Shown: in pieces, positions 14,171-24,335 of the stretch
Numbering within the stretch: the stretch's first letter is position 1
How the letters are laid out: every line of letters starts with the position of its first letter
Source: Eledone cirrhosa
Lineage: Eukaryota
DNA: 64,000 bases
Assembly: GCA_964016885.1 (NCBI GenBank)
Contig: OZ024741.1
Coordinates: 404,860,001-404,924,000 of the forward strand
Direction of reading: 5' to 3'
Position numbers and translations under genes: made by a program
Notes under the pieces: model-generated
Seen by the model: only the letters and a program-made list of their open reading frames with translations
Databases searched by the model: none
What the model was told of the DNA's origin: nothing

Positions 14171-14240
14171 TGCCGTACATGGGAGTCGAACCCACATCTT
14201 TGGTTATCCAGACCAATGTGCTACCATTACACATCCCGTC
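14171..14240 (-). pseudogene. tRNA-like sequence (SINE head or tRNA pseudogene)
   Basis: Minus strand has D region tgtaatggtagca, anticodon arm ttggt-ctGGAta-accaa and T arm gtggg-ttcgact-cccat; the acceptor stem does not pair. Confidence 0.6.
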
Positions 14241-14794: not shown

Positions 14795-17700
14795 CTTTAA
14801 TTTGCAGACACATACTCAGAGTAGGCCCATTCACTCGGGCCATTCTTGCCTCTCTCACCCATCTTTCAACAAATGCTGGGAAGAGAGCACTTCCCTCTCT
14901 ACCCTGATTTTCCTTTTCAAATGAAATTTGAAAAAGTTAATCAGGGCATCACCGAAGAGGTAAGTGCTCGTCTTCAGCCCTTTCAAACGTGTCCACCATA
15001 CTATCTCTTTCGCCATGGCCACAGACAGATAAAAACTGCCTGCCCTTCCCGGCTAAAGGAAGAGGGCGGGGCAATCCTCACGATGGACTCAGCTGATAGC
15101 TGGATCCGTCCCACACGCGACAGCAGGTGTTCGACATAAACCCACAAGTCAGCAATGCTCGGACACTGGACGAGTACGTGCAGGACGGTTTCGTCGCCCT
15201 GCGCGCATCTCGGACATGCCTGGCTGACGGCACCTCCATGCCTGTAGAGTTTATCCCGAACTGGCAAAGCTCCTCGGTAGCACTGCCAGGCTAGGGATTT
15301 CTGGAAGTTGTCCATAGGCCCCGGCCCGAAAGTTCTTCCGAAGAGATTGGCTAGTTGATTTTCGTCGACGCCTAGAGTTTCCCCAAGTACGTCGTCGCTC
15401 TTCCCCTCCACTAATCCTCTATAGAACGCCAAGGTGGAGTTTCCACCGATCACATTGCCCGATTGGTCGAGGGCTGTGAGCGCCTGAAGACATTCCAGTC
15501 TCCAGGCGCTCCCTCTCGGTCTTCGCTTGACCCAGGACTGCAGCTCCGTCAAGGAGACGAGCTGGGGAAAGACGTGTCTAGCAAACGGAGACCACACCTG
15601 ATCACCGTCGAGGAAGAGGTGGAGATGTCGTGGCCTGAGCGCGTGTCTGCGCATCATCAGCCACGGCATTCCCAGCCCTCCACGTAGCGGGTGTTGACAG
15701 CAGATGGACCGCCTGACCATCGGAGCGCGTCCCTTCCACAAAAAGCGAAAGAGCAAACGCTCCAGCGCAGTCAGGCGGGGCTTAGGACAAGGTACGACGG
15801 TCAGGCGGTAGTAGATGACGGACGCGATATACGCGTTAGCCACCTCCGCTCGACCTTTCAGGGATAGCTTCCTCTCGGCCCATTTCTGGGTGAGAGAAGC
15901 CACCCTGCTCGTCACCTCGTCCCAGTTTTGTCCGTCTGGAGATCTGGACAGAACCAGACTCCGAGCAATTTAACTGGTCCGTCCGTCCAGCGCCCGGCGA
16001 CGCTGTTGGACGGCATGGACGTGCCTCTCCAGGTGCCGAGCTGCAGGCCCACTGACTTTTCCTGGTTGATCATTGCTGCTGTCAACGTTTCGTATTCTCT
16101 TAGTCTAGTGCCGATCGCCTCGATGTGTTTGGCGTTCGACACCACTACGGTGACATCGTCCGCATATGCTGACACGGATCTTCCGCATCCTAGTTCGCGC
16201 GGGACCCCCCTCAATGTCTCCAGTTTGTGCAGTAATGGCTCGAGAGTCTATACGTACAAGAGGGACGAGAGGGGACATCCTTGGCGGACCGAGCGTATGA
16301 TGTTGAACGGTTCCGAAAGCTGACCATTCACTCTCACCACAGAGCAGATGTCACTGTGCATGGCAGCGATCCAGCCTCTGAAGACGGGCCCAAAGCCAGC
16401 CGCCCTCAGGACTGCCGCTAGGTAACGATGGTCGACCCTATCGAAAGCTTTCGACTGATCTAAATTGATCAAGGACCCACCCGTGCCAGGTTCTCTAGAT
16501 ACCCTCTCTACGATGTATCGCATGAGGTGGACGTTGTCGTGGATGGATCTGTCGGGAATGGCGCATGTCTGCGCCTCTCCCACCAGACCACCAACGACAA
16601 GCGCCAACCTCTTTTCTAGCACCTTGGCCAAAATCTTGAACTTTGTGTTTAGCAGAGTTATGGGCCTAAAATTATCTATGTTATCCCCCTTGTTCGGATC
16701 CTTTCTCAGCAGCGCCACAGCTCCTCGGCTCACAGAGCTGGAAATTCTCCCGTTCTGTTGCCAGTTGCAGTAGACGTCCGCCAAGAGGCCTCCGAACAAG
16801 TCTGGCATCTGTATGTAAAGTTCATAGGGCAGACCATCCAAACCAGGCGATTTACCCCTTGTGCAGCTAATCATTGCCTTCCGTACTTCAGCGGCTGTTA
16901 TCGGCTTTTCCCAACACTCTGCCTCAGTGGCCGAGAGCCGCGGCAGTCCGTCGAGGTAGACACTAAAGTCCATACCTCGATCCGGCCCGCCGTTTTCCCC
17001 GAAAAACTGAGCGAAGTGTCGCTGAAAAGCTTCACACATTTGCCCGGGATCGAGTAGCAAGGCGCCCGTCGTGGTCCACCAAAGACCGGATCGTGACTTT
17101 GTTGCCGGGTCCTCGTCTATGAAGCCTATCTAAGTCAAGCACACAGATCACGAATTTGTGGTCCGTGTAGCTGACTATCTTGAATTGTGGACAGCCTATG
17201 CTAGACCTATCTATTTCCCTACAAAATACTCTATCTAGATATGATCTGGATGACCCTATGTGATTTGTCCAAGTCCACATTGGCACATTCGGGAAATCCA
17301 ATCGGTACCTGTCAGACAGTTCAAAACGCCTGAGCAGGCTGGTGAGGCTCTTGCATCCTCCTCCCCTATCTGCTAATCCGACACAGTCCCAGCGTGCATC
17401 TAAGGTCCCGTTCTAGTCGCCCACTAACACTAAAAAGCGGGACGTTCCAAGAAAGGTCTCCAGACGTCGGAAGAAATCAGGCCGCCCTGCTCCTGGTGGG
17501 GCATAGACGGCCACTAGCCTGAAATCTTGCCCGTCTCCGTTGGTCACGTCTAGCACCACCAACTTACCTTCTGGGTCCAGGAAGATGGCCCGTATGGCGA
17601 GATCCAAACCTCTCCGAAAAAGCACAGCAACTCCTCCCCCGACCCAGGACGGCTGGGAGATGCGTACACATCGTAGCCGCCGAAGATCGGTGCGAAGGCC

Positions 17701-17837
17701 CGTGCTTCGGAGATTCTGGTCTCGCTGATGTCCACTACATCTATGTTTAGTGACCTGAGGTCGTTGAGAAGGTGGCCCTGCTTCCATGACGACCCCAAGC
17801 CACGCGCATTTATGCTGCCTATTCTGAGTGAGGTCAT
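14795..17837 (-). pseudogene. ORF2 (APE endonuclease + reverse transcriptase + zinc finger), frameshifted
   Basis: APE: SINARGL, ISET, AVYAP, LVGD, SYLDR, TDHK. RT: KSPGLDG, FRPITLLN, DQSKAFDRV, VRQGCPLS, AYADD. Finger: CPRC..ETVLHVLVQC. Split over at least 6 ORFs; 3' end approximate. Confidence 0.9.
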
Positions 17838-17871
17838 GTTGAAATGGAGTGGAAAAGATGGGAAAGACCAC

Positions 17872-19774
17872 TTACCTTACTTCTCGTAGAGGAAGGATGG
17901 TTTGTCCATCCTTTTCACTGCTTGTGGCCTCCTCCGGAAAGATGTCCTTATAAATCCTCCTGGAGAGTGTTTGTTGGAAGTCTCCGATGTCTTTGGGGAA
18001 TTTTTGTTTTAGTGTAGTGTACGTTTTCTGTGTGATGCGAGTGATTTGTATGTGTGGAGGTGGTGTGAACTTTTGGGTTGTTGTGTAGTATTTTTCTGTG
18101 ATGCTGGTGTTGTGTTGGATGTAGTGTAATAATTGGTTGTTGTTCAAATTTAATGCTGTGTAGTGTGTATCGTTTTGGTTGTTTTGTTTTGTTTGCGTTT
18201 GTTGTGGGTTTGTTTCTGTTTCGCTTTTTGGTGACTTTTGTGGTGTTGGTGATGGTGGTGTTGGTGTTTGTGGTGATGGGGTTGGTGATGCTGGTGTGGA
18301 TGGTGGCATATCTGTCCTAACTTTTTTGTTTGATAGTTTATTTGTTTCCCTCTATATTTTGTTTTTGGAGGGGGAAGGAACGGGATTTTTTCTTTTTTAG
18401 TTTCTTTTTCTTTTTTTCTTTTTTTCTTTTTTTCTTTTTTTCTGATACCGTTTCCCACTCCTCGTCGTCACAATCTGTCTCCAGTTGCGATAGGTCGGGG
18501 AGTGGAAAATCCTCCACAGGCGTTGGTTTTGGTTGTGGCGTGGTGGATGGTGTAGGCGCTGGTGCTAGTTCTGGCGCGTTGGGTGGTGGTGGTGTTGGTT
18601 TTGCTACTGTTGCTGGGGTTGTTGCTGTTACAGTTGCTTCTGTTGTTGCTGCTACAGTTGTTGCTGCCATTTCTGGTGCTGGTGGTGTTGATGGTTGAGT
18701 CTGGGGTGGGTAAGAGAGGTGGATTCAACCTTTTAGCCTGAGGGCAGAAAGCCCTTAGGTGGGTTCCTTCACCACAAACGACACACCTAGGCCTTCTGCC
18801 CTCGACGATTACGATGAGGTGGTTGCCGTCAGTGAGGTCTATTACCTCTGGGATCTCCTCAACTCTTTTTTGGTCCGCTTGGATCAGGAGCTCCATCCCA
18901 GATCCGGACCAGTTCTCCTGCTTTTCTTTCACTATTTCGATGACCTTGGTGTTGGCTTCGATGCCGGCGAGGGCGGCAGCCATTAGCCAGGAAATTTCGA
19001 TGGCCGGTGGAACGAGTCTCTGGCCACAATAGCTTGAGACGAGTGTGAAGTCGACACTTCTTAATGGGGCCATGGAGTGTTCTCTGGCCTCCTGTGGTGT
19101 TTCAAAGAACACGTCCGCGGTTCCATATTTCTTCCCACGTCTGATGTGGGGGTTTTTTGCCCACACATGTCCCAAAGCTTTTTGGATTTGGGACTCGGAT
19201 GCCCGTTCCACTCGGCGCAATTTTATGTTAATCGTCCGATAAGACACGGTGCATAGGCGCCGATGCTCCATTTTATTAGGTGGGGGGTGAGGCTGACCCT
19301 GTACCCATCTTTCTTTAACATTTTTTTGGATTCTTCTAATTCCTCCTGAGTTACCTGGAATGCTTCGCACTTTTTTGCTACTCTGGCAAAAGACAGGGTT
19401 TTCTTATTCTCATTGTTGCTGTTGTTGTTATCGTTATTTTTGTTATTGTTAATTTTAGTTTCAGTTGTGACGTCAGTGGTGTTCGGTGTGGAAGAGTTCA
19501 TTTTGGCTGAATTCGTTTCGATATCGCAAGTTAATTTATTTTTTTCTTTTGTTTCTGTTGTCGCTGTGGTGGTGGTGGGGGTGGCGGCTTCAACACCTGC
19601 AGTCATTGGTAATGGCGGGAAATGAATGTCTGCCTGAGACAAATTTAGAATATTGCTACTGCTTTTATTTTTAGTGTTGGCAAACGTAGTAATATTTACA
19701 ATGGTGGTGTCGGTGTGAGGTGTTAGTTTGTGAGGAAGGCTCTCAGCTACTGGGTTCAGCTGTGAGCCGGCCAT
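17872..19774 (-). pseudogene. ORF1 (gag-like nucleic-acid-binding protein), frameshifted
   Basis: ATG at 19774; zinc knuckle CVVCGEGTHLRAFC (CX2CX4HX4C) in 18468-19370; T/P/K-rich low-complexity C-terminal part. Confidence 0.75.
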
Positions 19775-21381: not shown

Positions 21382-22336
21382 CTAGCAGTAAAGCCCGGCG
21401 TTGCTCGGGGTCGCTCAGTAGCTGTGTTAAAGTTACAATGTTAAGTTTCTTTTTTGGCTTAAAAACTGTAGTGTCTACTGTGCAGACTTGCATGTGGTGT
21501 TTTTGATTAATATTCCCTCAACCAACAATATGCCTTATGAAGTTAAGAAAACATAACGATAACCCGAATGTTATAACAAAAGAGGATGCTGGGGATAAAA
21601 ACTGCACTGGTTATTTATTAACAAAGATCGAAAATGTAAACACTGCAACGCAGAGAAAAACATTAGCGTAACCAAATTATCAGTTATGTCTGTCTGCACG
21701 CCTATATCACCTCTCTGCACGACTGGCACGACTGTCTGTCTGCACGCGTATATCACCTCTCTGCACGCCTAACGAAATTTACAGATACATATATTTTAAA
21801 TAAACTTATATAATTTTTGCTTTTTTTTTACGAAATATTTGCTTGTTTTACGTAGTCTTTAAATAGACTTGTTTTCAAGTAAAAATATTGTTTTAAAAGG
21901 CTTTTAAATGGAAATGAAGCAAAACGGAAGCTTAGTGTTCGAACTGATGAATTTTGCAGGTCAAAATTTTGCTGGCTCGACAACTGTTCGTGTATTGTGT
22001 TAATGTCATTTTAAACGCTGAGAAAGCCAGCGTAATTTTTTTAATTTTTGCCAGCGTAATTTTTTTAATTTTTGCACGCAGAAAATGTAAAAGACGCTAC
22101 GCTGAATGTAAACAGAACAAAGGGAAATAACTGATCACTTACGCTCAAAAATCGATACATTATATTCGATTTCGTCAGATAGGGCGGGTCAATTTGAAAT
22201 ATTTTTTTCCGATGTCTTCGCTAGGGCTCAATGTACAAGTATAGCAATTTCGGTGCAATTCCGTGAGAGATTCTAAGAGGAGATGTGTGCCAAAAATCGA
22301 TAGACAGACAGACAACCTCAGCTTTATATATATAGA
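21382..22336 (-). mobile_element. Non-autonomous Helitron (~955 bp)
   Basis: Minus strand starts TCTATATATATAAAGCTG with a (gtct)n tract and ends with hairpin cccgagc-aac-gccggg then CTAG; inserted between A and T with no TSD. Confidence 0.85.
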
Positions 22337-23351
22337 TTTAACTAAATACCTTATGAAACGTTTTGCCAAATTTATGAAGACAAGAACTAAAGATTTCAAA
22401 ACGTTTATTTATAATTAAACGTCTATCTTGATGTATAGAATCTCTGTGTTACAGAAGTCACATCCCTTATATATAGATGTATTTTCATCAGGCAAAGCAC
22501 GAGAAAGTTTCTGCTGCCAAGAAAGGAAATATTGAATATTATTATTTTTAAGCGACCAAATCAATTCAGAGAGAGAGGCGTACTAAATCTTTTATCTTTT
22601 GTTTTAAACGAGTGGCGATGGTTATACAACCTTACTTTAAATTTAGAAGAAGTAGCACCAATAAGACTTATCATTCGTTTTAACTATACATTTATAAACT
22701 AAGTTACGATGAAGGCAGTTATTATTATGTTAATGGTATTATGACTGTTACTTAAGATGTTAATTTCATTGGTGAATCTATAATTATTATTGTGAGTTAT
22801 TTCCCTGTGTTTAATTCCAAGATTTCTATTGTTAATTTTTGCTATACTTTGGGCAATGTTTTTAGTAGTCGAGTAGGAAAGTTTAATTGTGTGTCGGTTA
22901 AAGATTTTACTGTATTTATGTGATTTAGGAAAGCATTTAGCAAGTGTGTTAAAGAAAAGACAAGCTAAGTTCTTCTTAATTCCTATAGATAGTGGTGGAT
23001 TATACCACAGAACGGAACGGGATCGAACCCTCTTATGTAACTTATTAGTTGTATAGGAGTTATAGTGGTGTCTACCAGTCTATGGTAGGGCCAATAACAG
23101 TAACAGAAATAATTCCAACGAGATCAGGTGATGAGAGTTTTAGTTGGCTTTCTATATATTGAATTACATTGAGCATTCAAATAGCTACAGAGACATATAT
23201 ATATATATATATGTATATGTGTGTGTGTATATATGTATGTATATATATATATATATGTTTCTGTGTATATATATATGTGTGGTGTGTGTGTGTGTATGTA
23301 TATGTATATGTATATGTATATGTTTGTGTGTGTGTATATATATATATATAT

Positions 23352-24280
23352 AAAATAATTAAGTCAAATATGTAAAATTTGGCTTCGTTTATTATAAATT
23401 ATAGATATACTGCTATATATATTTCGGTGACAGCCATCATTGGCTGTGACCTCTTCAGGCAGTCCGAATTGGTGTGGGAAAGACAGGTACACATGTTGTT
23501 GAAGTGTGTTTTACTCCGTCACTACATCGATATGTCCAGCTCCTGGGTGTGTTGTTATTCCTCCGAGGAACTGAAACCAATCTGCATACTGAGGTGTCGG
23601 TAAACAACCAGCATATACTAAATATCTAAAATGTGTATTATTAACTAGTAGAATTAACGATTAACTGGTTAATTTAATTAGACAATTCTATTGATTGATT
23701 AATTGTTTATGTTTGTTTGATAACTTCTAGTTGAGTGCTTAATTCGGTTTGTCTAAAGGAATTTTATTCCTTTGTCCCAAATTTCGAATTGACCGCCAAA
23801 ACGGGGGTTACCTCCCTTTGGGAAAACCACGTATCTCTAGCGAAGTTTACTGCTAGAAAATACACCCGTCGAGGAATAGAACGAAAATATTGTTGACGAA
23901 GTAAACTCCTTTGTTCTGTCGTCAAAAGCCATTAATTTGCAGACCCCTGCAAGTGGAATTTGTCGATCTCGGATTTACAGAAACCTAGCGAAGATGTTGT
24001 ATGTTATATGTGATGTATATTGTATGCTATACGTTATGTGTTGCATTTGATGTCTACGTTACGGTCCAGGTCAGTCAAAAGTTTTTCCTGAGTTAAGTTT
24101 TTTTCGTCGCTATGGAAATGCGGACCGACTATCGGTCTCTGTATTTGATTTGCAAAGCTGTCTAAACGTATTGTTATAACTCTGGGCTAATATTCTCCAT
24201 TGAGTGCTTAACTGCACACCGAATCTGCATTCGTTAGCTTGGCTGCTGCCAAAAGCTTCGTTGATGCTGTACTAAAATGT
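23352..24280 (-). mobile_element. Non-coding ~930-bp HHR-containing element between (TA)n tracts
   Basis: Both ends abut (TA)n; canonical HHR about 57 bp from the 3' end; no credible ORF. Boundaries inferred. Confidence 0.5.
23409..23463 (-). ncRNA. Canonical type I hammerhead ribozyme
   Basis: Minus strand: actgc-CTGAAGA-ggtcacagcca(atga)tggctgtcacc-GAAA-t-atat-a-TA-gcagt. Perfect 5-bp stem I, 11-bp stem II (1 mismatch), full core, AUA triplet, palindromic stem III. Confidence 0.85.
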
Positions 24281-24281
24281 G

Positions 24282-24335
<54 letters not shown>

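What the first reader, a model, noticed from the sequence alone, without database searches (positions are those of the whole stretch)
23409..23463. Best ribozyme candidate: fully canonical type I HHR with an (AT)n stem III
All core nucleotides are present, with a perfect stem I and an 11-bp stem II. Stem III is the self-complementary atatatat, which suits dimer-assisted cleavage as described for minimal HHRs and matches the (TA)n flanks. It sits near the 3' end of a ~930-bp ORF-less segment flanked by (TA)n.
Basis: partly seen in the sequence, partly recalled or inferred. Interest (0 to 1): 0.75.

Follow-up and report, generated by a model that had tools for sequence, protein, structure and literature searches.

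The report
Hammerhead in a Penelope retroelement end
This is a real hammerhead-ribozyme motif, present in hundreds of identical copies, at the end of a broken copy of a Penelope-like jumping gene; it is predicted to cut RNA only when two copies pair, which is already known for such elements.

Summary
The motif is real: minus strand 23463-23409, full core, 5-bp helix I, palindromic ATATATAT helix III; helix II is 10 pairs plus a C-C mismatch, not 11 bp. It has 363 exact copies in the genome. It is the 3' pseudo-LTR hammerhead of a ~4.3-kb Hydra-clade Penelope-like element (RT + GIY-YIG); the window holds a 5'-truncated, two-armed insertion in (TA)n. The '930-bp segment' is two unrelated repeats. 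The palindrome is not borrowed from the flanks: sister families swap it for other palindromes. Folding predicts an inactive monomer and a double-hammerhead dimer; cleavage and expression are untested. Hammerheads in Hydra-clade elements and dimer cleavage are published. Extras: the helix II mismatch is kept in 6 of 6 long-helix families; two-armed inserts end at two fixed sites 90 nt apart, one each; no 5' end maps to the cut site (0 of 30). This scan noted the mismatch (e1-9529214) and fixed ends (e1-8665316) before on other DNA of this genome. New member of a known kind.

The parts
23409..23463 (-). Type I hammerhead motif: helix I 23463-23459/23413-23409, CUGAAGA 23458-23452, helix II 23451-23441/23436-23426, GAA 23425-23423, A17 23414; predicted cut 23414|23413
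   Evidence: 363 exact copies
23415..23422 (-). Helix III: loop-less 8-nt palindrome AUAUAUAU, predicted to pair only between two motifs
   Evidence: P(A15.1-U16.1) in the monomer 0.006, dimer MFE is the double hammerhead; other palindromes in sister families
23429..23448 (-). C-C mismatch at pair 4 of helix II (23448 with 23429)
   Evidence: unpaired in 10 of 10 representatives and 6 of 6 families while pairs 2,3,5,6,7 pair in 30 of 30
23351..23579 (-). Sense arm: last ~230 nt of the Hydra-clade Penelope-like element (pseudo-LTR), ending at fixed end E1, 63 nt after the cut site, in (TA)n
23577..23628 (+). Inverted second arm: last ~45-50 nt of the 90-nt 'tail' (the 5' start of the next unit), ending at fixed end E2
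23195..23352 (.). (TA)n/(TG)n microsatellite, the insertion target
   Evidence: Hydra-clade preference for (TA)n, PMC8557442 section 11
23627..24282 (+). Separate ~647-bp non-coding repeat (element B), partial-tandem, (TA)n-flanked, no canonical hammerhead; not part of the hammerhead element
22335..23063 (-). Remnant of another, AT-rich Hydra-clade family (RT C-terminus to GIY-YIG, internally deleted); separate insertion

Best explanation
The motif is the type I hammerhead in the 3' pseudo-LTR of a ~4.3-kb Hydra-clade Penelope-like retroelement, seen here in a 5'-truncated two-armed copy inserted in (TA)n, and it is predicted to self-cleave only as a double hammerhead formed through its palindromic helix III. 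Shown: the motif, its family, its link to the RT/GIY-YIG ORF, the insertion anatomy. Predicted: a lone motif folds inactive; two motifs in a tandem transcript (upstream and downstream pseudo-LTR) pair AUAUAUAU with AUAUAUAU and cut after A17. Inferred: cutting at both pseudo-LTRs would release a unit-length RNA that is likely ligated to a circle; the element's RT would then prime from both strands of a nicked (TA)n site at two fixed TA-like positions (E1, E2) on that one RNA, giving the two mirror arms. The window copy has one hammerhead and no partner in cis, so it is likely an inert relic.
For: Tandem-like copies run pseudo-LTR with hammerhead, tail, ATG, RT, GIY-YIG, 3' UTR, hammerhead again, 4348 bp apart in L185. 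ORF pieces carry RMRW[RK]A, DKTNN, GSSDSAQ, YRDD, CxCX5C, YIG, CxxC, CxH, the Hydra-clade marks of PMC8557442 section 11. Helices I, II, III covary across 10 representatives of 6 families. In 138 family copies core, helix III and H17 differ 2-3% against 8-11% in flanks (Fisher p 3e-38). Dimer MFE equals the double hammerhead, -42.4 against 2 x -17.6 kcal/mol; also for 23350-23520. Two-armed inserts: one E1 plus one E2 in 38 of 38 with both ends at fixed sites (54 pairs examined) and in 20 of 21 in a sample picked by the hammerhead alone. Both arms are of the same subfamily in 26 of 26 pairs. 12 of 30 5'-complete copies run across the upstream cut site, as a circle allows.
Against: No cleavage or expression data exist here. 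No 5' end lies within 10 nt of the cut site in 30 5'-complete copies, so the genome holds no direct scar of cleavage; uncut read-through RNA explains the 12 crossing copies equally well. 18 of 77 tail ends carry A-runs of 6 or more (most from a search with an A-rich query), which hints at some linear polyadenylated templates. With the whole 23353-23628 stretch the cofold MFE does not form the inter-molecular helix III, and 23380-23500 forms it only partly; 3 of 10 representatives did not show helix III in the dimer MFE and 2 only partly. PMC4209133 reports only low dimer activity for minimal PLE hammerheads. Flank divergence is inflated by subfamily indels. 34 of 138 copies have a damaged core.
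Confidence: 0.75

Rival explanations
1. The motif belongs to the same element and can pair, but cleavage is slow or incidental; templates are linear read-through RNAs ending at E2, and the hammerhead fold serves as a binding or dimerisation signal for the element's protein.
For: No 5' ends at the cut site, 0 of 30; A-runs at E2 in a minority; low in-vitro activity of PLE hammerheads (PMC4209133); Naiads thrive without canonical hammerheads (PMC8557442).
Against: All catalytic core letters and an H17 that permits cleavage are kept across families whose helices differ. Both arms share subfamily in 26 of 26 pairs, which does not favour random pairing of two different RNAs.
Confidence: 0.17
2. The window copy belongs to a short non-autonomous retrozyme or SINE-like unit (about 325 nt, or the reader's 930 bp) that is mobilised on its own.
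For: Many copies start at one spot, the TCATATGA palindrome near 23579, and the 3' end far outnumbers the RT region (1931 against 336 first-look candidates).
Against: The same sequence is contiguous with 3' UTR and ORF in long copies; no head-to-tail array of the 325-nt unit among the loci mapped; the 930 bp are two repeats; 3' excess is what 5' truncation gives.
Confidence: 0.06
3. A chance match or a monomer-active stand-alone host ribozyme.
For: Rfam finds no hammerhead; AT-rich surroundings.
Against: 0 hits in 500 shuffles; 363 exact copies; covariation; monomer helix III probability 0.006.
Confidence: 0.02

Closest known systems
Hammerheads of Hydra-clade Penelope-like elements (Craig et al. 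2021, PMC8557442; saw abstract, passages, section 11, supplement file 1 part 2 and search hits)
   Same: Type I hammerhead near the 3' end, sense to the ORF; C-terminal GIY-YIG element with the same motifs; (TA)n target; 5'-truncated inverted arm; tail at one end only.
   Different: Listed Hydra hammerheads have a 3-4-bp helix III with a 1-3-nt loop and, as tabulated, no C-C at pair 4 of helix II; here an 8-nt loop-less palindrome and a 10-pair helix II with a fixed mismatch. Element ~4.3 kb against <3 kb; tail ~90 nt against 30-40 bp. Two diagnostic words of this family were not in the supplement.
Minimal and palindromic-helix-III PLE hammerheads (Cervera and de la Pena 2014, PMC4209133; parts 1-2 of 4 read); Lunse et al. 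2017 (not held; known only through the review PMC6765202, passages and section 11 part 2)
   Same: Short helix I, long helix II, palindromic helix III, predicted dimer-only cleavage, thousands of dispersed single copies from truncated elements, G10.1-C11.1 pair.
   Different: No extra nucleotide between A9 and G10.1; helix III is 8 nt rather than absent or 2-6 nt; internal C-C mismatch.
Metazoan non-LTR retrozymes (PMC7229834, passages; bioRxiv 10.64898/2026.07.22.740005, parts 1-2 of 5)
   Same: Type I hammerhead, Penelope link.
   Different: Retrozymes are head-to-tail arrays of short non-coding units; this motif sits on a coding element and its truncated copies.

Membership tests
Type I hammerhead ribozyme | Core CUGANGA, GAAA, UH with A15.1-U16.1 | tested here: met
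Type I hammerhead ribozyme | Three helices, open helix I, supported by covariation | tested here: met
   helix III only as an inter-motif duplex
Type I hammerhead ribozyme | Site-specific self-cleavage | not testable with these tools
   needs in-vitro assay
Rfam hammerhead families (Hammerhead_1 and others) | Score at gathering threshold | tested here: not met
   no hammerhead hit at gathering or E<=10
Canonical metazoan type I hammerhead | 6-bp helix I, 4-bp helix II with loop 1/loop 2 contact | tested here: not met
   5-bp helix I, 10-pair helix II against the description in PMC4209133
Penelope-like element | Single ORF with RT and GIY-YIG endonuclease joined to the hammerhead-bearing end | tested here: met
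   by motifs read in broken natural copies; Pfam gave no hit on three sister-family ORFs
Penelope-like element | Partial tandem (pseudo-LTR), inverted 5' arm, tail at one end | tested here: met
Hydra clade | RWK-type motif, DKT in place of DKG, CxCX5C linker, CxxC and CxH, C-terminal EN | tested here: met
   against PMC8557442 section 11 and its listed proteins, compared by eye
Hydra clade | (TA)n insertion preference | tested here: met
Hydra clade | Placement in the Hydra clade by RT phylogeny | not tested
   reference proteins were seen only as cut text in a supplement; no tree built
Hydra clade | Length generally under 3 kb | tested here: not met
   unit ~4.3 kb; a tendency in the paper, not a definition
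Non-LTR retrozyme | Tandem non-coding units each with a hammerhead | tested here: not met

The most novel reading that the evidence does not exclude
The fixed pyrimidine mismatch at pair 4 of helix II is an undescribed contact point that makes these long-helix hammerheads efficient dimer cutters, and their cut-and-ligated 4.3-kb circle is the single template from which the Penelope RT primes twice, at E1 and E2, to build two-armed insertions; this family would then be a direct test system for the unsolved Penelope integration mechanism.
Probability: 0.25. Interest if true: 0.6.

Novelty: new member of a known kind. Interest (0 to 1): 0.27.

Why it matters
As a ribozyme find it is ordinary: hammerheads at Penelope ends, including the Hydra clade, and their dimer dependence are in print. 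Its use is as material: what these hammerheads do for Penelope elements is called unclear in PMC8557442, and this family offers a known autonomous parent, hundreds of identical motifs, two fixed ends, and a conserved helix II mismatch that can be mutated.

Tried and rejected
Rfam: three scans, no hammerhead hit. RNA evidence: no RNA holder listed, no evidence either way; contigs of three runs of unknown kind only show the repeat in organisms A and B, with the same inverted junction in B. Pfam on the window remnant and three sister-family ORFs and PDB on an RT piece: no hit. Idea that helix III derives from the (TA)n target: rejected, other palindromes in sister families. Idea that 5' ends mark the cut site: 0 of 30. 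Idea that the dimer brings two different RNAs: arms share subfamily in 26 of 26 pairs, though subfamilies may not be contemporaries and arms can convert each other. A-to-G editing scars: none in 213 copies. Second CTGATGA at 22491: a point change inside endonuclease coding sequence, relatives read CTTATGA. Permuted hammerhead in element B: UUGACGA and a GAAA block with a possible 8-bp helix, but no fitting cleavage block found by eye. One apparent E1/E1 insert (L229) lies inside a larger inverted duplication. Lunse et al. 2017 could not be read; supplements of PMC4209133 and of the 2026 preprint were not seen and may show the mismatch or this family.

Full report
Observation. The minus strand of 23463-23409 holds a complete type I hammerhead core with a 5-bp helix I, a helix II of 11 positions of which the fourth is C-C, and the palindrome AUAUAUAU before A17. 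It is the only hit of my descriptor in the window and none arose in 500 dinucleotide shuffles of the non-satellite part. Rfam does not score it. The window lies in a 3.0-Gb animal genome; the 55-mer occurs 363 times exactly, the reversed control 0 times.

The segment. 23351-23628 matches a family with 1931 first-look candidates; 23627-24282 matches another with 3492, which forms partial tandems on the plus strand and lacks CUGANGA. None of 29 other loci of the second repeat has the first abutting it.

The parent element. Walking upstream from the hammerhead through other copies gave a 3' UTR, then a GIY-YIG domain and an RT. Near-complete copies read: pseudo-LTR with hammerhead, 90-nt tail, ATG, ORF, 3' UTR, hammerhead; 4348 bp between hammerheads in L185. 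Natural open pieces carry RMRW[RK]A, DKTNN, GSSDSAQ, YRDD, CNCRNPALC, YIGAT, CKLC and CRH, the features that define the Hydra clade in PMC8557442 section 11. All 11 copies examined are broken or lacked my start motif. A protein search with an RT piece found 223 longer relatives, best 44-47% identical, one named as an Argonauta hypothetical protein. No tree was built.

Insertion anatomy. Copies stop at two fixed places: E1, 63 nt after the predicted cut, and E2, 90 nt further, which is the first 90 nt of the next unit. The window copy has a sense arm ending at E1 and a short inverted arm ending at E2. Of 54 adjacent inverted pairs, 38 had both ends at fixed sites and all were E1 plus E2; 11 had an arm reading into the ORF and 5 an interrupted arm (with L209 re-read); these loci came partly from tail-containing queries. 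In 40 places picked by the exact hammerhead only (7 as close pairs, 33 singles on contig C1), my count by eye is 20 E1+E2 (18 without two likely duplicates, two of them from short tail remnants) and one E1/E1 that lies in a larger inverted duplication. This is the 'tail at either end' of PMC8557442, longer than the 30-40 bp given there. Arms share the subfamily indel in 26 of 26 pairs and are closer to each other than to the median copy in 35 of 41, so both likely come from one template.

The ribozyme. In 138 distinct copies the core, helix III and H17 differ 2-3%, flanks 8-11%; 104 keep an intact core. Loci fetched for other reasons held hammerheads of sister families; across 10 representatives of 6 families helix I and II pairs swap compensatorily and helix III stays a palindrome with changed letters. 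So the palindrome is selected as such, not copied from (TA)n. Pair 4 of helix II is a pyrimidine mismatch in all 10, while pairs 2, 3, 5, 6, 7 pair in 30 of 30 family-level cells. These families were chosen for having a long helix II and are related, so they are not independent; short-helix families and one long-helix family lack the mismatch. A paper search for such a mismatch gave 0 papers; searches gave nothing beyond PMC8557442 and one unrelated review. I saw the mismatch before meeting scan note e1-9529214, which reports the same on other DNA.

How it likely works. Alone, the motif cannot close helix III (probability 0.006), and in 23350-23520 competing hairpins cut helix I probability to about 0.13. 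Two copies fold to the double hammerhead in the MFE for the 55-mer and for 23350-23520, but not for the whole 276-nt stretch. This fits the published dimer model (PMC4209133; review PMC6765202), with low reported rates. In a tandem transcript the two pseudo-LTR hammerheads would cut each other. Of 30 5'-complete copies none starts within 10 nt of the cut, 12 run across it and 4 start at E1 (two rows are arms of one insertion). That excludes a simple linear template beginning at the cut as the main route and leaves a ligated circle or uncut read-through RNA. I favour the circle modestly, following the proposal in PMC4209133; A-runs at some E2 ends argue for some linear templates. The window copy has one hammerhead only and no RNA data exist, so it is probably inert.

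Verdict. Real, well-formed, explained: a new family member of the known Hydra-clade Penelope hammerheads. The mismatch, the long tail and the strict E1/E2 pairing are useful details, already noted by this scan elsewhere in the genome. Interest 0.27.

Noticed in passing
window 23627-24282 (+): Element B: ~647-bp non-coding, (TA)n-flanked repeat in partial tandems, 3492 candidates. Holds UUGACGA (23896-23902) followed by GUAAA(C)UCC that can pair with GGAUUUAC before a GAAA about 80 nt on, like hammerhead blocks C and G, but no fitting cleavage block; a run's loose end reads CTGAAGA there.
   Followed up: partly
L018, L114, L100 and window 23627-23750: The starts (tails) of different (TA)n-targeting families share short words, TACTCC and GAGTGC, possibly a common promoter or recognition signal.
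   Followed up: no
window 22335-23063 (-): Remnant of an AT-rich Hydra-clade family; the protein search gave 36,897 first-look candidates in the genome, so the clade is very abundant here.
   Followed up: partly
window 29338-64000: Satellite of 91/182/273-bp period with strong G/C strand skew; many units contain CTGACGA next to a small hairpin but no GAAA block was found by the scanner.
   Followed up: no
window 15001-19403 (-): Broken non-LTR retrotransposon with RVT_1 and zf-RVT hits.
   Followed up: no
window 14179-14232 (-): Partial tRNA-like match, likely a SINE head.
   Followed up: no
L033-L058: Some E2 ends carry untemplated A-runs up to 26 nt before (TA)n; frequency inflated by the query used.
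   Followed up: partly
near window 23579: Many truncated copies begin at a TCATATGA palindrome, often with a small fold-back remnant; a hotspot for joining the two arms.
   Followed up: partly
loci L001-L262: About 1 Mb of fetched loci hold at least a dozen other hammerhead families with palindromic or short-loop helix III.
   Followed up: partly
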